Position numbers and translations under genes: made by a program. The notes beneath the pieces are model-generated. The model saw nothing but the letters and a program-made list of their open reading frames with translations, was not told where the DNA came from and searched no databases. Shown in pieces: positions 42,081 to 49,122 of a stretch of DNA of 64,000 bases. The stretch comes from Aquificales bacterium (GTDB taxonomy: Bacteria > Aquificota > Aquificia > Aquificales > QOAS01), in assembly GCA_027036735.1 (NCBI GenBank), contig JALWDU010000056.1, forward strand, positions 38,816-102,815. Direction: 5' to 3'. Within the stretch, counting starts at the first letter, position 1, and each line of letters opens with the position of its first letter.

Positions 42081-42650
42081 CTAACCTCCTCTTTCGAAAA
42101 TGCCGCTTGGGGTAACTATCAGGTCGAGGGGAATATCGTGCTCCTCGCAGGGAACGCTTTCGACCAGCTGAAAGTCGTAGGCGACGCCGACCTTTGCACC
42201 CTTAACGCGGGGGAGAAAGCGGTCGTAAAAACCCTTTCCCATTCCCAGGCGACACCCCCTTTTGTCGAAGGCTACCCCCGGAACGGCTACGAAGTCTATT
42301 TTTTCCGGTTTGAAAATCTTGCCCCCCGCCGGTTCGGGGATACCAAAGACCCCCTTTACGAGGGGTGTCCCCCCCACCAGTTCGACCGCCAACATATCGC
42401 CGTCGCGGGTGACTTTCGGGAGCAACAAAACCTTTTGAGGGTCTCTTAAAACCTCCTCAAAGAGGGGTCTTAGGTCTATTTCTCCCCTTACGGGGTAGTA
42501 GAGCATCACCGTTTTTGCCCTTTTAAAGGATGGGAGTTCCTTTATCCTCTCACATACCTTTAGGGAAGCCTCCCTTATCTCTTCCTCTCTTAGGGATTTT
42601 CTCTTTTGAAGAAGTTCCCTTCGGAGTGTCTCCTTTTCCCTTCCGACCAT
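42081..42650 (-). CDS. ygfA: 5-formyltetrahydrofolate cyclo-ligase
   Basis: 189 aa. VAVPGVAFDKRGCRLGMGKGFYDRFL is the family signature. Confidence 0.88.
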   Translation of the reverse strand: MVGREKETLRRELLQKRKSLREEEIREASLKVCERIKELPSFKRAKTVMLYYPVRGEIDLRPLFEEVLRDPQKVLLLPKVTRDGDMLAVELVGGTPLVKGVFGIPEPAGGKIFKPEKIDFVAVPGVAFDKRGCRLGMGKGFYDRFLPRVKGAKVGVAYDFQLVESVPCEEHDIPLDLIVTPSGIFERGG

Positions 42651-42664
42651 GGTGGGTTTCTCCC

Positions 42665-42885
42665 TTTTGGAAGTCCGCCCCGCCCCCAGGGCGTGAGGGC
42701 TGTTATTCCCAGATGGGACCCAAAGGTAAAGGTGGGAAGGCTACCCCCGTGCCCCCCTTTCGGAGGGTGATGTCCCCAAAGGGATAGGGGACATCGGGGG
42801 ACCCGCCTTCCCTCTTAGGGTGCCCGTAGTCCCCGAAGGGAATAACCCCCCCACGACACCGGGCAGGGCGGCTCTCTCCAAGCAA
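42665..42885 (-). ncRNA. ssrS: 6S RNA-like structured RNA (rod-shaped hairpin with internal bubble)
   Basis: About 200 nt with no credible CDS. An 11-bp closing stem joins 42675-42685 and 42861-42871; it has a G-U pair on the minus strand where the plus strand would have a C-A mismatch. Inner helices are TTATTCCC/GGGAATAA (42703-10/42838-45), GGGAC/GTCCC and GGGAAGGC/GCCTTCCC (42734-41/42805-12). A largely unpaired stretch of about 14-16 nt per strand lies between these inner helices. The apical hairpin is GATGTCCCC-9nt-GGGGACATC (42769-42795). The element sits immediately upstream of the 5-FCL gene on the same strand, matching the E. coli ssrS-ygfA synteny. The ends are approximate. Confidence 0.55.
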
Positions 42886-43015
42886 TATCAAATATACATC
42901 AACCCCGTGGGGCTAACCCTTCGCTCACTCAGAAAATTTCCCCGAAGGGGGTTGCAATTTATAAATAGAAAACTAAATTTCCTTTATAAGGAAAAACTAA
43001 AGGGAGGTGCCAACC

Positions 43016-43441
43016 ATGGCAGAAAAAAAAGAGCAAGTTAGGGTGGAAGACCAAGTTAGGGCTCTCATCGCCCAAATCGAAAGCATAAGGGCTGAAATCG
43101 CAACCCTCGACGCCGCAATCAACGCACTCAGGCAAACCGTCGCAACCTTGAGAACCCTCAAAAAGCTCGGAAAGGGTAAAAACGTCCTCATACCGGTGGG
43201 TTCCATCGCACAGGTCGAAATGAAAATTGAAAACCTCGACAAGGTGGTCGTTTCGGTAGGTCAAAATATCTCCGCCGAGCTCTCCTACGACGAGGCGGTC
43301 AAATACATCGAGGACGAGATTGAAAGAATTCTCGCGCTCAGGCTCGTTCTCGAGCAGACCATCGCAGACCTCTACACCCAAATCGACGCCCTCATCAGGG
43401 GTCAATCCCAAGAGCAACCCCAGGAAGGGGAAAACAAATAA
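43016..43441 (+). CDS. Prefoldin alpha-like coiled-coil protein
   Basis: 141 aa from ATG 43016, which follows a GGGAGGTG SD. The layout is coiled coil, then a double beta-hairpin core (VLIPVGSIAQVEMKIENLDKVVVSVGQNISAELSYDEAVKYIEDEIERI), then coiled coil. This is the prefoldin alpha/GimC-alpha layout. Confidence 0.6.
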   Translation: MAEKKEQVRVEDQVRALIAQIESIRAEIATLDAAINALRQTVATLRTLKKLGKGKNVLIPVGSIAQVEMKIENLDKVVVSVGQNISAELSYDEAVKYIEDEIERILALRLVLEQTIADLYTQIDALIRGQSQEQPQEGENK

Positions 43442-43498
43442 TTACTTCCCCCTTTCGGTTTTCCTTCCTAAATTCTTCCTTAAAGAGGAGGCTACGTT

Positions 43499-43759
43499 AT
43501 GAACAATCAACCCACCTTAAGCGAAAGTTTGGTTCTCCAACTGCAATTGGTTAGGGCTGAATTGGAGCAACTTGAAAGGGTTAAGGAATTCCTGAAGAAA
43601 CTCGAACCAGGGAGGAAAATCTATATAAACCTTGGCGAGGTGATGGTCGAGAGCAACTACCTCGAGGCTATGCAATACCTCGAGGAGAAGGAAAAGGAAC
43701 TGAGAGCTCTGCTCCTCGAGTTGGAGAGCAAAGTAAACGTATCCCAATTTAAAGTTTGA
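43499..43759 (+). CDS. Prefoldin beta-like coiled-coil protein (short)
   Basis: 86 aa with an AGAGGAGG SD. The layout is coiled coil, a single hairpin core (KIYINLGEVMVESNYLEAMQYLEEKEKEL), then coiled coil. Confidence 0.5.
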   Translation: MNNQPTLSESLVLQLQLVRAELEQLERVKEFLKKLEPGRKIYINLGEVMVESNYLEAMQYLEEKEKELRALLLELESKVNVSQFKV

Positions 43760-44365: not shown

Positions 44366-46174
44366 ATGCGAAAGGTTGGATTTGTAATAGGAAACAGACC
44401 CGCCAACCCGCTCGAGTTTTGGGTCGGGATAGAGAGGGGAAACGTCGTTCAGCTCGACGATATCCTGAAGGTGGAAAGCACCCTCGAAAACGGACAGAGG
44501 GTCGAGTTTTACGGCGTGGTGGCGGAGGTTTACCGCTACCTCGAGGGTTCGGAATTCGTATTCGATTCGAAAGATTTCGTTCAGGGGAAACTGCCGGCAA
44601 ATCTCGCCTACGTGGCAAAGGTGCAGGTTACCCGCATAGACGACGAAATATACGTTCCCCCCTTTCCGGGCGACCCCGCCTTTCTCGTTGGTAGTGGCGA
44701 CGGCGAAATAGACAAAGCCCTCTACTTCGACCAGATGAAGGTTAAAATCCCCGCAGGGCTTTTGAGAAATGGGGAACCGGCTTATATCAACTACCACTTT
44801 TTAAACGGGAGAGACGGGGCGCATATCTCTATAAGCGGAATTTCGGGAGTGGCGTCGAAAACTTCCTACGCCCTCTTTCTGCTCTATTCGATACTAAACC
44901 GAGTTAGGGAGGAGAGGGTTAACGCCCTAATTTTCAACGTCAAAGGTGAAGACCTCTTTTTTATAGACAAACCGAACAGGGTGTTTCACGAGAGGAGGAA
45001 GGATTTCGAACCCCTCTACAGGAAAATGGGTTTGGAGGCGAAACCTTTCGAAGGTGTGAAGTTCTTCGCCCCCCCGGTAGGAAAGAATTCGTTAATTCCC
45101 GACGTTGAGAGTAGAAAGGAGGGTGTAAACACCTACCTCTGGACGGTTAGGGAGTTTGCCGAAGAGGAGCTCCTCAAATTTCTCTTCGTCGAGGGTGAGG
45201 AGGGGGTCGGAAGTCTCCACTATGTGATTGACAAGGTCGCCGAAAGGCTCAAAGAGATGGCGGAACTCACCCGCGAAGGACAAAGGGACAACCCCGGATG
45301 GGCGGGTAGGCTTATGAACTTCGACGATTACGACAACGTCGGCGAACCGATTCCACCCTACGAATTTACCGGCTTGGAAGACATTCTTTCTTTCCTAAAA
45401 AAGGTGGTGAAAAATAGGCGCGCCTGCAACGCGGACAAAACCTTTAGGAAAGAGAACGAGGACTTTTGCAACAAGACGGCGGAGGTCTATGAAAATTGGT
45501 TCGGAACGGTTACCGTTTCGGTAGCCTACGCCTTTTTGAGGCGCTTCGACCAAGCGGTTCAATACGTCTCCCCAATGGTGGTAAATCCCGACCTCTTGGA
45601 GGGTGAGGATAGGGAAAAGTTCCGCATAGATTGGAGAAATTCAAAACTTTCGGTGGTGGGAATTAACAAACTCCACACCATAGCGCAGATGTTTGTCGTA
45701 GGTTCCCTCCTCAAGAAGATATTTAAGGAAAAGGAAAAAATCGGTCGGAAACCGGTTCTCTATGTAGTCCTCGACGAGCTGAACAAATACGCCCCGAGGG
45801 GTGGGTGGTCTCCCATAAAGGATATACTGCTCGATATAGCCGAAAGGGGTAGAAGCCTCGGGATTATCCTCATCGGCGCACAGCAGACCGCCTCGGAAGT
45901 TGAAAAACGGATAGTGGCTAACGCCGCCGTAAAGGTGACCGGAAGGCTCGACGCCTCCGAAGTGGCGGCACGCGAATACGACTTCCTACCCCAAATATAC
46001 AAGCAGAGGGCTTTGCTCCTCAAAAAGGGGCAGGTAATAGTCCACCAACCCGATATCCCCGTGCCCCTCGTTCTAAGCTTCCCCTTCCCCGCATGGGCTA
46101 CGAGGGCGGAAGAGGTTCTGGAGGAACCCGATGGCGGCGATTTTGAAATTTTTGACAACTATTGTAGCGATTAA
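44366..46174 (+). CDS. HerA-like (COG0433/DUF87) FtsK-HerA superfamily ATPase with HAS-barrel
   Basis: 602 aa. N-terminal barrel (GFVIGNRPANPLEFWVGIE...VEFYGVVAEV). P-loop region ISISGISGVASKTSYA, a deviant Walker A with Ser before Lys. Walker B VLYVVLDELNKYAP. HerA-type LGIILIGAQQTASEV...VTGRL. Confidence 0.7.
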   Translation: MRKVGFVIGNRPANPLEFWVGIERGNVVQLDDILKVESTLENGQRVEFYGVVAEVYRYLEGSEFVFDSKDFVQGKLPANLAYVAKVQVTRIDDEIYVPPFPGDPAFLVGSGDGEIDKALYFDQMKVKIPAGLLRNGEPAYINYHFLNGRDGAHISISGISGVASKTSYALFLLYSILNRVREERVNALIFNVKGEDLFFIDKPNRVFHERRKDFEPLYRKMGLEAKPFEGVKFFAPPVGKNSLIPDVESRKEGVNTYLWTVREFAEEELLKFLFVEGEEGVGSLHYVIDKVAERLKEMAELTREGQRDNPGWAGRLMNFDDYDNVGEPIPPYEFTGLEDILSFLKKVVKNRRACNADKTFRKENEDFCNKTAEVYENWFGTVTVSVAYAFLRRFDQAVQYVSPMVVNPDLLEGEDREKFRIDWRNSKLSVVGINKLHTIAQMFVVGSLLKKIFKEKEKIGRKPVLYVVLDELNKYAPRGGWSPIKDILLDIAERGRSLGIILIGAQQTASEVEKRIVANAAVKVTGRLDASEVAAREYDFLPQIYKQRALLLKKGQVIVHQPDIPVPLVLSFPFPAWATRAEEVLEEPDGGDFEIFDNYCSD

Positions 46175-47174
46175 TTTTTTCCTCAACCCTCTTTTTGGGA
46201 AGGATATTAAGGAGATAAGGGCAACCGTTAAGGGGAATCTTTACAAAATCATCCTATATCTGGAAAGACCTTTAAGATATAAACCCCGCCTCTTTTCCGA
46301 TTTAGGTCGGCATATCTTGGTTTTAAAACTAAGAAATAAAGAGACATTTTTTAAAGATTTTTACAGCGTATCTATTATAAGTGAAAAAGATTGCGTTATT
46401 TTCTTTTTTAAAAACCCCAAACTGGAACTTAAAAGAACTAAAGTGTTCCTTAACAAGGAGAGTGTTATCGTCTCCGTTCCTATAACGAAACGAAAAGCAT
46501 CAAAATATGTAATTGTGATAGACGCGGGACATGGTGGAAAAGACCCTGGAGCCACCTACTTCGGTGTTAGGGAAAAAGATATAAATTTTTCCGTTGCCAG
46601 AAAGTTATTTAAACTCCTCTCCAAAGACCCGCGATTTGAGGTGTACTTAACCCGGAAAGGAGACTACTTTGTTTCCTTAGCCGATAGGCAACTATTCACC
46701 ACGAAAGTAAAGGCTGATTTATTTATTTCCATTCACACAAATGCCGACCCCAAAACCTCCAAACGCCGTGGGGTTTCCTTCTACATCCTCTCCGATAGAG
46801 GTCTAGAGGAAAAATTGAGGGATTTAATGAAAAATTCCAAGGAAAGGAGAAAATTTATAAATCTTTTTCCAAAACCGGATAGGGCTCTTTTAAGAGAAAC
46901 CATTAAGGGAATGCTCCTATACAATCAACTTGGAGGGGAACGGTTTGCCCTCACACTTCGCAATCTGTGGTGTAAATATCTGTCCAAATATATCCCCTGT
47001 GGAGGCATTTACAAAAGAGCTTTTGCCGTTTTAAAGACACCGGGAGTGCCCTCCGTTTTGATAGAGCTCGGATTTATGACCAACAGAAGAGACTTGAAAC
47101 TTTTAACCTCTCAAAAGTTTCAGGAAAGGGTGGCGGAAGTTATCTATAGGGCTGTTAGATTATTTTTCCAATAA
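46131..47174 (+). CDS. N-acetylmuramoyl-L-alanine amidase (Amidase_3, AmiC-like with N-terminal AMIN-like domain)
   Basis: 347 aa. VIVIDAGHGGKDPGA, SIHTNA and ELGFMTN motifs. Signal-like N-terminus. The start overlaps the herA-like gene by 44 nt and is uncertain. Confidence 0.85.
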   Translation: MAAILKFLTTIVAINFFLNPLFGKDIKEIRATVKGNLYKIILYLERPLRYKPRLFSDLGRHILVLKLRNKETFFKDFYSVSIISEKDCVIFFFKNPKLELKRTKVFLNKESVIVSVPITKRKASKYVIVIDAGHGGKDPGATYFGVREKDINFSVARKLFKLLSKDPRFEVYLTRKGDYFVSLADRQLFTTKVKADLFISIHTNADPKTSKRRGVSFYILSDRGLEEKLRDLMKNSKERRKFINLFPKPDRALLRETIKGMLLYNQLGGERFALTLRNLWCKYLSKYIPCGGIYKRAFAVLKTPGVPSVLIELGFMTNRRDLKLLTSQKFQERVAEVIYRAVRLFFQ

Positions 47175-47178
47175 ATTT

Positions 47179-49122
47179 TTATTCTTCCTCATTTGCAGTA
47201 TCTTTAATATAAAAAGGCATTTTCTTATAAAGGAGCTCGTATAAGTCAAATGGTCTTCCCGCTAATTGTCCAACATCCCTAGTCCAGGGGGAAAGACTAT
47301 AGTAGCCTATAGCCTTTGTATCGCGCAATTTAAAGATTCTTAAAGGAATTGCTACAAAAATACCTTTATCATGATAGTTTCTATTCGGACCGGAGAAATT
47401 AGAGGTGTTCGAATAAGTATACCAAAAGCCTACTTCGAACCCGTGAACTTCCCGAGAGATTTCAAATCTAATTCCCTTATCCCCTGCTAGAAATCTTCCC
47501 GCTTTAATTTTGAATTTAATTCTAGGCTTTTGAGTTACATAATAGGCTGATATATATTCATCGTGGAATCTCCAATTTCTTAAACCAAAAACCCTATTAG
47601 GGTCTCTTTTATATACATAATCCCCTCCTATACCCACGGCAAATCTTCCATCCCCAAAAAAGTGAATAATATCTCCACCGATTCCGGCAAACATCAATTC
47701 GTTATAACCGGTTGAGATGCTTAAAAATGTATTTTTATAAATACTGTTAATGTAAGATAGCGATAAAACGCTAAAGTTAGGATGCTTTTGACCTAAATAA
47801 TCGGCTATATCGCTTCGAACCGGTTTTGGCATAAGAGGTTTATTTACTGTGCTGATATTATTAATGAATGGTATAAATAGGCTTGCATCTAAACGAAAGT
47901 TGTTAAAGAAATAACTCTCAACCCCTAAATCGATACTAAACATATATTTAAATGCACCGGAAGGGTCGTTAAGAAAAGTTCTCAGTTTCGGATATATAGT
48001 CCATTTATAGGTTATCCAATTTTTATTCCTTACTTTATAGTTATATGCAATTTTTGATTTTGCTTTTTTTAAAAGAGTTTCGTAGTCTTCCTTACCCAAC
48101 AGAAAGTTGTTAATATCCGCTCCGTTAAAAATAAACTCACTAATAGGAATATTTTTTTCCTTTACAATAATCTTAACCTTTCGAATATTCTTAAAATAAA
48201 GAACTTTCAGCACATATAAAATCTTTTTAATTGCAACACTATCAAAAAAATATTTATCAGTTGAGTATTCTATTACTAAGGTATCTCCTAATGTGTATAC
48301 TTCAACATTATCGTATTTAAGCTTTTCTAAAGCTTTTTCATAAAACTCCGTTTGTTTATTTTTTCTAATTAACTCAATATCTTCTTTTGTAAGCCTAAAA
48401 AATCTCTTTTTATGGGGTAACCAAGGTTTTCCCATGGGGAAATTTGCATTAATATTGATTCCATACGTAGTTCCTCTCTGGTAAGAAACCACTATTTGCA
48501 ACCAAGATAAAATTTGATACTTTAACCCTATATTTATCTTTGATTTTACTTCCTTATTTTGTAAACCTTTGAGTTCTTCCTTATTAATAGGAGAATATTC
48601 CAAAATAAATGATAATTTAGGGTGGAGTAAAATTTCACTTCCCGCAAAGAAACCGTTTAAGAGTTTCCCCTTTGCAACTCCAAATGTTAGATTTTCGGGA
48701 ATATAAAAGTCTATATATTTTGAAATTACCAAATATTTTGTATCAAATAGCTTGGTTCCATGGAAATCATCCCAACCTACAGCTATTGCAGGATATTTTC
48801 CTTTCTCGGGTAAAATTTGATATTTAACGAAAAAAGCTTTATCTTTGTATTTACCGTAACCAGACCAATAGTCTGAATTTAAGGTTATGTCTTCTATCTG
48901 TGTAATAACTCCCCCAATTTCTAATCCTGGAAAGAAACCAATATTTATATAACCCCTTAAATATGGATAGACATAGGAAATACCTAATGCCATATTTCCG
49001 TCTTTAACGGTGTAAGCTGTTGGGTTTTCTAATAAACCGGTTCTACCAAAGTTAGATAATATCGGCGTTGCGGACAAAACTGAAGAGGAAAATAAGAAAC
49101 TAGATATTAGAAATTTTTTCAT
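47179..49122 (-). CDS. YjbH/GfcD-like outer-membrane exopolysaccharide protein
   Basis: 647 aa with a signal peptide. The N-terminal FGRTGLLENPTAYTVKDGNMALG matches the YjbH pattern (FGGxGLLxxPTA). Aromatic-rich, beta-barrel-like sequence. Confidence 0.7.
   Translation of the reverse strand: MKKFLISSFLFSSSVLSATPILSNFGRTGLLENPTAYTVKDGNMALGISYVYPYLRGYINIGFFPGLEIGGVITQIEDITLNSDYWSGYGKYKDKAFFVKYQILPEKGKYPAIAVGWDDFHGTKLFDTKYLVISKYIDFYIPENLTFGVAKGKLLNGFFAGSEILLHPKLSFILEYSPINKEELKGLQNKEVKSKINIGLKYQILSWLQIVVSYQRGTTYGININANFPMGKPWLPHKKRFFRLTKEDIELIRKNKQTEFYEKALEKLKYDNVEVYTLGDTLVIEYSTDKYFFDSVAIKKILYVLKVLYFKNIRKVKIIVKEKNIPISEFIFNGADINNFLLGKEDYETLLKKAKSKIAYNYKVRNKNWITYKWTIYPKLRTFLNDPSGAFKYMFSIDLGVESYFFNNFRLDASLFIPFINNISTVNKPLMPKPVRSDIADYLGQKHPNFSVLSLSYINSIYKNTFLSISTGYNELMFAGIGGDIIHFFGDGRFAVGIGGDYVYKRDPNRVFGLRNWRFHDEYISAYYVTQKPRIKFKIKAGRFLAGDKGIRFEISREVHGFEVGFWYTYSNTSNFSGPNRNYHDKGIFVAIPLRIFKLRDTKAIGYYSLSPWTRDVGQLAGRPFDLYELLYKKMPFYIKDTANEEE

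What the first reader, a model, noticed from the sequence alone, without database searches (positions are those of the whole stretch)
43016..43759. Archaeal-type prefoldin alpha/beta-like gene pair in a bacterial context
Two consecutive + strand genes with strong SDs encode a 141-aa and an 86-aa protein. Both have the architecture coiled coil, beta-hairpin core, coiled coil. The first has a double-hairpin core (VLIPVGSIAQVEMKIENLDKVVVSVGQNISAELSYDEAVKYIEDE) like prefoldin alpha. The second has a single-hairpin core (KIYINLGEVMVESNYLEAMQYLEEKEKEL) like prefoldin beta, although it is shorter than typical beta subunits (about 110-120 aa). Established knowledge: prefoldin/GimC (alpha2beta4) is regarded as an archaeal and eukaryotic chaperone that is generally absent from bacteria. 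Inference: this pair may be an inter-domain transfer into a thermophilic bacterium, possibly working with a bacterial chaperonin or alone. I cannot say from memory how widespread such bacterial homologues are.
Basis: partly seen in the sequence, partly recalled or inferred. Interest (0 to 1): 0.55.

Follow-up and report, generated by a model that had tools for sequence, protein, structure and literature searches.

The report
Bacterial gamma-prefoldin with mini-beta partner
A heat-vent bacterium carries a close relative of the filament-forming archaeal chaperone gamma-prefoldin plus a small one-hairpin partner gene, and the same overlooked partner sits next to gamma-prefoldin in Methanocaldococcus jannaschii, so it may be a natural cap that sets filament length.

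Summary
Window 43016-43441 (+) encodes a 141-aa prefoldin alpha-class protein (P1) and 43499-43759 (+) an 86-aa beta-class protein (P2). Both pass Pfam's curated thresholds, give confident models and best match solved prefoldin subunits. The context is bacterial (Aquificales).

The interpretation needs refining. P1 is not a generic archaeal alpha. It is 64-69% identical to gamma-prefoldin (PDB 6vy1), the self-polymerising filamentous chaperone of Methanocaldococcus, and forms its sister clade (199/200 bootstraps). P2 belongs to a 'mini-beta' family of 50-99 aa found only in Aquificota and Methanocaldococcus. It is almost always encoded directly after, or overlapping, the gamma-type gene: 17 of 19 loci in a reverse test. 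In M. jannaschii the partner is MJ0647, still 'uncharacterized'; I found no paper on it.

Best explanation, by inference: P1 is the double-hairpin polymerising holdase subunit, and P2 fills its free hairpin sites and ends growth, like the engineered TERM cap. Assembly would then range from capped filaments to an alpha2beta4-like hexamer, depending on the ratio. Binding was not tested. The direction of inter-domain transfer is unresolved. Databases already call these proteins prefoldin subunits; the gamma link and the conserved partner appear to be new.

The parts
43002..43009 (+). Shine-Dalgarno site of P1 (GGGAGGTG), 6 nt upstream of the ATG
   Evidence: Read directly from the sequence.
43016..43441 (+). 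P1: 141-aa gamma-prefoldin-type, alpha-class (double-hairpin) prefoldin subunit
   Evidence: PF02996 92.4 bits and TIGR00293 100 bits. PDB 6vy1_A phmmer E 1.8e-46. AF2 model pLDDT 87.7, best fold match 6vy1_A at 69% identity and 1.3 A rmsd. Sister clade to Methanocaldococcus gamma-PFD in 199/200 bootstraps.
43181..43285 (+). P1 residues 56-90: the two beta-hairpins (oligomerisation core, equivalent to X1 and X2 of gamma-PFD)
   Evidence: DSSP strands 56-61, 65-70, 76-82 and 85-90. By my count on the alignment, residues 55-103 differ from M. jannaschii gamma-PFD at about 9 of 49 positions.
43485..43491 (+). Shine-Dalgarno site of P2 (GAGGAGG), 7 nt upstream of the ATG
   Evidence: Read directly from the sequence.
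43499..43759 (+). P2: 86-aa 'mini-beta' prefoldin subunit with a single hairpin and short coiled-coil arms
   Evidence: PF01920 31.6 bits, cutoff 27.6. AF2 pLDDT 87.2. The top 8 PDB fold matches are all prefoldin beta subunits, best 2zdi_B at TM 0.82 and 1.6 A. Conserved directly downstream of the gamma-type gene in relatives. Under purifying selection.
43619..43654 (+). P2 residues 41-52: the single beta-hairpin within the family motif FLKxLxPGRKIYxxLGxVMVE
   Evidence: DSSP strands 41-44 and 49-52. R39, V50, E51 and E56 are invariant across all three partner classes.

Best explanation
P1 and P2 form a two-gene operon for a two-component, ATP-independent holdase chaperone of the gamma-prefoldin type. 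P1 has two beta-hairpins and two long helices of about 50 and 42 residues. Like its close archaeal orthologue, it is the polymerising subunit: its hairpins join those of neighbouring subunits into a continuous beta core, and its coiled coils project outward to bind non-native proteins. P2 has only one beta-class hairpin and short arms of 27 and 31 residues. It docks on the hairpin sites left free at the end of a P1 oligomer but offers no site for further growth, so it terminates assembly. It would therefore be a natural counterpart of the engineered TERM cap. The P2:P1 ratio would set the size, from long capped filaments when P2 is scarce to an alpha2beta4-like hexamer when P2 is saturating. 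SHOWN here: family membership, fold, orthology to gamma-PFD, conserved gene pairing in two domains of life, and purifying selection. INFERRED: that P1 polymerises, that P2 binds P1, that P2 limits length, and the holdase role during heat stress.
For: (1) P1 is 64-69% identical to M. jannaschii gamma-PFD, and the hairpin region is about 82% identical by my count on the alignment. The P1 model superposes on the filament subunit 6vy1_A at 1.3 A. Gamma-PFD self-assembles through exactly these two hairpins, X1 and X2. (2) P2 has the beta-class single-hairpin fold. It aligns to the P1 family as 'alpha minus the two inner strands' (hhalign probability 90.7%, E 1.3e-6), which is the geometry by which beta subunits complete the barrel on an alpha dimer in solved prefoldins. 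(3) The genetic linkage is very tight. In the reverse test, 17 of 19 loci found through mini-beta had the gamma-type gene immediately upstream on the same strand, with hit-to-hit gaps of -13 to +88 nt; the other two were a contig cut at its end and a marginal hit. The genes overlap in Methanocaldococcus and Thermovibrio. (4) In the sister lineages the partner keeps only the hairpin and helical stubs (50-58 aa), yet has dN/dS of 0.07-0.23. The conserved function therefore lies in the hairpin, meaning docking, and not in substrate-binding arms. (5) An engineered subunit with one working hairpin (TERM) is documented to cap gamma-PFD filaments and to set their length by ratio.
Against: Filamentous gamma-PFD has been seen inside M. 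jannaschii cells, which carry MJ0647, so the partner does not abolish filaments there. One AT-rich methanogen locus (L015/L016) has a gamma-type gene and no mini-beta within 3 kb, so the partner is not obligatory. In A. aeolicus the partner lies 2.5 kb downstream, in a cluster with unknown and by-eye membrane-like proteins, which hints at a different or additional role in that subfamily. P2 has its own strong SD and keeps real coiled-coil arms, which fits a stoichiometric hexamer as well as a cap. No heat-shock operator (CIRCE) was found.
Confidence: 0.5

Rival explanations
1. P1 and P2 form an obligate, discrete alpha2beta4 hexamer like canonical archaeal prefoldin (a jellyfish with two long and four short tentacles). 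It would act as a holdase that hands clients to the bacterial GroEL/ES or DnaK systems, and no filaments would form.
For: Both proteins pass the Pfam prefoldin thresholds and have the canonical folds. Both genes have strong, independent SD sites, which suggests comparable expression. P2 retains 27- and 31-residue helices.
Against: P1 is only 18-25% identical to canonical alpha subunits but 64-69% identical to the filament former, which is reported not to bind canonical alpha or beta. P2 fails the GimC-beta equivalog threshold, 22.4 bits against 73. In sister lineages the partner's arms are reduced to stubs, so four of the six 'tentacles' are dispensable. No group II chaperonin partner is expected in a bacterium (own knowledge; not tested).
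Confidence: 0.25
2. The pair is not primarily a chaperone. It builds a structural or scaffolding filament, a cytoskeleton-like or membrane-associated brush, with P2 acting as an adaptor or nucleator.
For: Gamma-PFD forms micrometre-long filaments that are widely distributed in cells, and its cellular role is stated to be unclear. In the Aquifex and Thermovibrio subfamily the pair sits in a conserved cluster with UPF0128, a 240-aa unknown protein and two small proteins that look membrane-associated by eye.
Against: Gamma-PFD is reported to have chaperone activity and 26-fold heat-shock induction. The window pair lacks that accessory cluster: tblastn of the A. aeolicus cluster proteins finds only P1 in the 64 kb.
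Confidence: 0.12
3. P2 does not interact with P1. The adjacency is inherited synteny, and P2 acts alone (for example as a homo-oligomer) or is decaying.
For: One gamma-type locus lacks a partner (L015/L016). Partner length varies widely, from 50 to 99 aa.
Against: The adjacency survives across two domains of life and through rearranged neighbourhoods, often with overlapping reading frames. There is strong purifying selection. The hairpin motif is invariant.
Confidence: 0.08

Closest known systems
Gamma-prefoldin (gamma-PFD, MJ0648) of Methanocaldococcus jannaschii; PDB 6vy1, filamentous PFD
   Same: P1 is 64-69% identical over essentially the full length, with an almost identical double-hairpin core. 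It has the same fold (1.3 A rmsd) and is the sister clade in the tree. Both genes are followed by a mini-beta gene.
   Different: The host is a bacterium (Aquificales) with no expected group II chaperonin. P1 lacks the acidic C-terminal tail of the archaeal proteins. Its partner P2 is longer (86 aa with real helices) than MJ0647-type partners (about 54-58 aa) and is separated by 57 nt rather than overlapping. Filament formation by P1 is untested.
Canonical archaeal prefoldin / GimC (alpha2beta4; PDB 1fxk, 2zdi)
   Same: The same two subunit classes and folds. The alpha-then-beta logic, in which single-hairpin subunits complete the beta core of a double-hairpin subunit, is the basis of the proposed mechanism.
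   Different: Sequence identity is only 18-26%. P2 fails the GimC-beta equivalog cutoff. P2's arms are roughly 60% of P1's in length and are lost altogether in sister lineages. By my recollection, which I did not check here, canonical alpha and beta genes are usually not adjacent.
TERM, the engineered capping mutant of gamma-PFD (Glover et al., Nat Commun 2016, PMC4895442)
   Same: A subunit with one functional hairpin binds filament ends and blocks elongation, and filament length is set by the cap:subunit ratio. P2 and MJ0647 are natural one-hairpin proteins encoded next to the filament gene.
   Different: TERM is a full-length gamma-PFD with a mutated X2. P2 is a separate beta-class gene product, and its capping activity is a hypothesis.
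Aquifex aeolicus O66961 ('putative prefoldin subunit alpha') and aq_754 (O66956)
   Same: The same alpha-like plus mini-beta family in the same phylum. P1 is 43-50% identical to this tier.
   Different: A distinct subfamily embedded in a longer cluster (UPF0128, unknown proteins, DUF505), with the partner 2.5 kb away. This partner has a long N-terminal helix and almost no C-terminal helix.

Membership tests
Prefoldin alpha class (Pfam PF02996; NCBIfam TIGR00293) | Profile score above the curated cutoffs | tested here: met
   P1 scores 92.4 bits against a cutoff of 23.2 and 100 bits against 53.9.
Prefoldin alpha class (Pfam PF02996; NCBIfam TIGR00293) | Coiled coil, two beta-hairpins, coiled coil | tested here: met
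   AF2 model: H2-51, four strands, H91-132, pLDDT 87.7. Fold matches 2zdi_C, 1fxk_C and 6nr8_5 with TM 0.80-0.85.
Prefoldin alpha class (Pfam PF02996; NCBIfam TIGR00293) | Forms the alpha2 core of an alpha2beta4 hexamer and delivers clients to a group II chaperonin | not testable with these tools
   No multimer modelling or biochemistry was available. No chaperonin gene was examined.
Gamma-prefoldin (filamentous PFD, 6vy1 type) | Specific sequence and phylogenetic affinity to MJ0648 rather than to canonical alpha | tested here: met
   Phmmer E 1.8e-46 against 6vy1, compared with 3.7e-6 and 2.6e-5 against canonical alphas. The i+ii clade has 199/200 support. Only 13 representative clusters reach E<=1e-10 in 1.84 billion proteins.
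Gamma-prefoldin (filamentous PFD, 6vy1 type) | Homopolymerisation into filaments through both hairpins | not testable with these tools
   Inferred only, from the roughly 82% identity of the hairpin region (my count on the alignment).
Gamma-prefoldin (filamentous PFD, 6vy1 type) | Heat-shock induction | tested here: inconclusive
   No CIRCE operator and no sigma-70 consensus promoter were found upstream. No expression data were available.
Prefoldin beta class (Pfam PF01920) | Profile score above Pfam's gathering score | tested here: met
   P2 scores 31.6 bits against a cutoff of 27.6, E 1.7e-7.
Prefoldin beta class (Pfam PF01920) | A single beta-hairpin between two helices | tested here: met
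   AF2 model: H7-33, E41-44, E49-52, H54-84. The top 8 PDB matches are beta subunits.
Archaeal GimC beta equivalog (NCBIfam TIGR02338) | Score above the equivalog cutoff, with full-length arms of about 110 aa | tested here: not met
   P2 scores 22.4 bits against a cutoff of 73. It is 86 aa, against 101-114-residue beta chains in the PDB. P2 is therefore beta-class but not an orthologue of GimC beta.
Mini-beta partner family (defined here: P2, MJ0647, aq_754, Thermovibrio 51-aa 'prefoldin subunit') | Motif [FL]LKxLPxGRK[IF]Y...G..[MWY]VE[VS] in a 50-99 aa protein encoded immediately after a gamma-type alpha gene | tested here: met
   Alignment A1. The profile search returned only Aquificota and Methanocaldococcus among named sources. 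Adjacency held in 17 of 19 reverse-test loci.

The most novel reading that the evidence does not exclude
The mini-beta proteins (P2 here, MJ0647 in M. jannaschii) are natural, genetically encoded terminators and length regulators of gamma-prefoldin filaments. The much-studied 'homopolymeric' gamma-PFD would then really be one half of a two-component system. That system is native to Aquificota bacteria and was passed to Methanocaldococcus, so a 'unique archaeal' chaperone would be of bacterial provenance.
Probability: 0.3. Interest if true: 0.72.

Novelty: new variant of a known kind. Interest (0 to 1): 0.58.

Why it matters
Reviews still state that prefoldins are absent from bacteria and describe gamma-PFD as a unique homopolymeric chaperone of one archaeon whose form and role in the cell are unclear. 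This locus shows three things. The gamma-PFD type is widespread in a bacterial phylum. It comes with a conserved, apparently unstudied partner. The same partner, MJ0647, sits beside the gamma-PFD gene in the model organism. That gives the chaperone and protein-nanomaterial fields an immediately testable idea, a natural length-control or capping subunit. It also gives evolutionary biologists a clean case of chaperone exchange between bacteria and archaea that live in the same vents: all three family branches occur in one metagenome, Ga0256838.

Tried and rejected
1. I tried modelling a read-through P1-linker-P2 'fusion', since the two genes share a reading frame, to see the interface.
2. I looked for a natural alpha-beta fusion among the homologues. 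P0167 (145 aa) is only a mini-beta with a read-through tail, and the longer P1 homologues are upstream-extended gene calls.
3. The GC-rich, highly structured upstream region might have been a prefoldin 5' leader or RNA thermometer. I rejected this: it is a 6S RNA-like gene on the opposite strand, linked to the 5-formyl-THF cyclo-ligase gene.
4. A heat-shock CIRCE operator search gave 0 matches with up to 3 mismatches. The sigma-70 consensus promoter scan found none.
5. I asked whether the window also carries the A. aeolicus-type accessory cluster (UPF0128, DUF505 and others). It does not.
6. I tried to read the direction of horizontal transfer from tree topology. A first tree nested the window-plus-Methanocaldococcus clade inside Aquificota, but this did not hold with 45 canonical outgroups, so the direction is left unresolved.
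7. A recent-transfer signature in base composition was not seen: the pair is at 44-52% GC, like its surroundings.
Cluster-name look-ups gave little taxonomy for the deep branches, so I inferred their bacterial origin from neighbouring genes.
9. The founding gamma-PFD paper (PMC2203346) is not held. I therefore cannot exclude that it mentions Aquifex homologues or MJ0647.

Full report
OBSERVATION. P1 spans 43016-43441 (141 aa) and P2 spans 43499-43759 (86 aa). Each is preceded by a strong Shine-Dalgarno site (GGGAGGTG and GAGGAGG), and they are 57 nt apart. The pair is bounded upstream by a divergently oriented 6S-like RNA gene (42673-42872, minus strand). Downstream it is bounded by a convergent TorD/NarJ-type chaperone gene that overlaps the P2 stop codon. 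It is therefore a self-contained two-gene unit.

The wider context is bacterial. It includes RNase Y, 5-formyl-THF cyclo-ligase and a peptidoglycan amidase. The exact P1 sequence is deposited as 'prefoldin subunit alpha [Aquificales bacterium]' on a 120-kb MAG contig. Base composition across the pair is unremarkable.

FAMILY ASSIGNMENT. P1 scores 92.4 bits against Pfam Prefoldin (cutoff 23.2) and 100 bits against TIGR00293, prefoldin alpha (cutoff 53.9). P2 scores 31.6 bits against Prefoldin_2 (cutoff 27.6) but only 22.4 bits against the archaeal GimC-beta equivalog TIGR02338 (cutoff 73). The AlphaFold2 models are confident. P1 has a 50-residue helix, four strands forming two hairpins, and a 42-residue helix (pLDDT 87.7). 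P2 has a 27-residue helix, one hairpin and a 31-residue helix (pLDDT 87.2).

WHAT P1 REALLY IS. The best PDB sequence match for P1 is not a canonical alpha. It is 6vy1, the 'Cryo-EM structure of filamentous PFD from Methanocaldococcus jannaschii', with E 1.8e-46. Canonical alphas score only 3.7e-6 (2zdi_C) and 2.6e-5 (1fxk_C). The P1 model superposes on 6vy1_A at 1.3 A with 69% identity. By my count on the alignment, the hairpin region differs at about 9 of 49 positions.

According to the literature, gamma-PFD is an alpha paralogue induced 26-fold by lethal heat shock. It does not associate with alpha or beta PFD. It self-assembles through its two beta-sheet elements, X1 and X2, into filaments longer than 2 um with coiled coils projecting like a brush. 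It has chaperone activity and is filamentous in vivo, although its cellular role is called unclear.

An exhaustive HMMER scan of 1.84 billion representative proteins shows that this is a small, separate family. Only 13 clusters reach E<=1e-10. After a gap come the canonical alphas at 21-32% identity.

HOMOLOGUE TIERS AND PHYLOGENY. P1 homologues fall into three tiers.
- Tier i: 83-100% identity, from Aquificales and 'Aquifex sp.' vent MAGs.
- Tier ii: 61-70% identity, from Methanocaldococcus species (the gamma-PFD orthologues).
- Tier iii: 42-55% identity, including A. aeolicus O66961, Thermovibrio and many MAGs.

The deep tier iii branches are bacterial by their neighbours. One locus has the rpoA-L17-S4-S11-S13-L36-IF1 cluster and the Aq_1262 and Aq_1264 families, one has SecDF and one has MurJ. 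In neighbour-joining trees, tiers i and ii are sisters (98/100 and 199/200). Whether that clade nests inside tier iii or is its sister is not resolved: nesting appeared with two outgroups but not with 45.

The next-nearest clusters are a 'bacterium 3DAC'/Dictyoglomota protein and crenarchaeal alphas. An inter-domain exchange between Aquificales and Methanocaldococcus is therefore clear, and both organisms occur in the same vent metagenome, Ga0256838. The taxon distribution is phylum-wide in Aquificota but a single named genus in Archaea, which leans toward a long residence in Aquificota. The direction is not established.

THE PARTNER. The unexpected result concerns P2. A direct search found it only in Aquificae MAGs. 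However, the 56-aa ORF that overlaps the 3' end of the M. vulcanius gamma-PFD gene matches the P2 hairpin core. The same 54-58-aa gene is present in M. infernus, in metagenomic Methanocaldococcus and in M. jannaschii itself. In M. jannaschii it is MJ0647 (UniProt Q58063, 'Uncharacterized protein'), whose annotated 71-aa reading frame overlaps MJ0648 by 71 nt.

Thermovibrio and other tier iii loci have a 51-59-aa version directly after the alpha-like gene. A. aeolicus has a 99-aa version, aq_754, 2.5 kb downstream in the same co-directional cluster. All versions share the motif FLKxLPxGRKIY...G..MVEVSKEEA and match the centre of the Prefoldin_2 profile. A profile search of 5.8 billion proteins returned 98 members, and every named source was Aquificota or Methanocaldococcus.

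In a reverse test, 17 of 19 metagenomic loci retrieved through mini-beta had the gamma-type gene immediately upstream on the same strand. The exceptions were one contig that ends 32 nt upstream of the match and one 19-bit marginal hit. Many of the fetched loci are duplicates of one another, so these counts overstate the number of independent observations.

The small ORFs are under purifying selection. dN/dS is 0.07-0.23 in Methanocaldococcus, and for P2 the synonymous sites are saturated while dN is 0.17-0.24. One AT-rich methanogen locus has the gamma-type gene but no partner. I found no paper mentioning MJ0647, Q58063 or aq_754 in the prefoldin context; the founding 2007 paper is not in the library.

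MECHANISM. This part is inference. In solved prefoldins, single-hairpin beta subunits complete the beta core built on double-hairpin alpha subunits. In gamma-PFD those sites are instead filled by further gamma subunits, which gives a polymer. A protein with one beta-class hairpin should bind a free site at the end of a P1 oligomer and provide none for growth. That is exactly how the engineered TERM cap works, and the TERM:gamma-PFD ratio sets filament length.

Three observations support docking as the conserved function. The partner's arms are dispensable in sister lineages, whereas the hairpin is invariant. Mini-beta aligns to the P1 family as alpha with the two inner strands removed. The genes are translationally coupled in most lineages. 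In the window, P2 keeps short arms and its own strong SD, so assemblies may be short, and an alpha2beta4-like hexamer is the limiting case.

I give 0.5 to the 'polymerising subunit plus terminating subunit' model. I give 0.25 to an obligate canonical-style hexamer, about 0.12 to a mainly structural filament, and about 0.08 to no interaction.

COMPARISON AND NOVELTY. P1 is a member of the prefoldin alpha class and, by sequence and phylogeny, of the gamma-PFD subtype. Filament formation is untested. P2 is beta-class by Pfam and by fold. It is not an equivalog of GimC beta, because that defining threshold was tested and not met.

Databases already label these proteins 'prefoldin subunit', so the bare presence of prefoldin genes in Aquificota is not new, even though reviews say bacteria lack them. 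Two things appear new. The first is the specific orthology to the filamentous gamma-PFD. The second is a conserved mini-beta partner shared by bacteria and Methanocaldococcus. Together these recast gamma-PFD as probably one half of a two-component system. I rate this a new variant of a known kind, with interest 0.58.

Noticed in passing
window 42673-42872 (minus strand): A full-length match to Rfam 6S/SsrS RNA (model positions 1-187 of 187, 32 bits, below the gathering score of 46.4, E 8e-5). The minus-strand fold z-score is -5.3. It lies directly upstream of the 5-formyl-THF cyclo-ligase gene (42081-42650, minus strand), which is the classic ssrS-ygfA linkage (own knowledge). It is probably a divergent Aquificales 6S RNA that Rfam's threshold misses, and it explains the GC-rich 'intergenic' region upstream of P1.
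   Followed up: partly
window about 46200-49100: GC content falls from about 50% to 25-35%. The stretch covers an Amidase_3 gene (46131-47174, + strand) and a 646-aa YjbH exopolysaccharide-family gene (47179-49122, minus strand). A sister contig, L008, has different genes after the amidase. This is possibly an inserted island.
   Followed up: partly
L005 5001-10149 (A. aeolicus); L018 3117-6261 (Thermovibrio); L020 6546-9507; L021 6577-9643: The Aquifex/Thermovibrio-type alpha plus mini-beta pair sits in a conserved cluster with UPF0128 (PF03673), a roughly 240-aa protein with no Pfam family, and either two small (165-190 aa) proteins that look membrane-associated by eye or a YfdX protein. A. 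aeolicus adds a 656-aa DUF505 protein. The function is unknown. The cluster suggests that this subfamily works with specific partners or clients.
   Followed up: partly
L017 3001-3216 (M. jannaschii L77117): MJ0647 is annotated as 71 aa with a lysine-rich N-terminus that overlaps MJ0648 by 71 nt. Orthologues in five other Methanocaldococcus loci are 54-58 aa, so the true start is probably the internal Met (MKKKLNNEF...).
   Followed up: partly
P0211 cluster: A further bacterial prefoldin alpha, 'prefoldin subunit alpha [bacterium 3DAC] / [Dictyoglomota bacterium]', on a 1.59-Mb genome. It is 38% identical to P1 and lies outside the gamma-like family, so it may be an independent second case of prefoldin in thermophilic bacteria.
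   Followed up: no
window 44366-46174 (+ strand): A 602-aa ORF, conserved in sister contigs, with no Pfam family at E<=0.001. Its function is unknown.
   Followed up: no
L015/L016 3001-3444: An AT-rich methanogen locus, next to CdhD genes, encodes a gamma-PFD-type protein that matches the M. jannaschii protein at 91 of 131 compared positions. It has no mini-beta ORF within 3 kb, and the downstream spacer is AT-rich and full of stop codons in all three frames. This is a natural 'partner-less' comparison case.
   Followed up: partly
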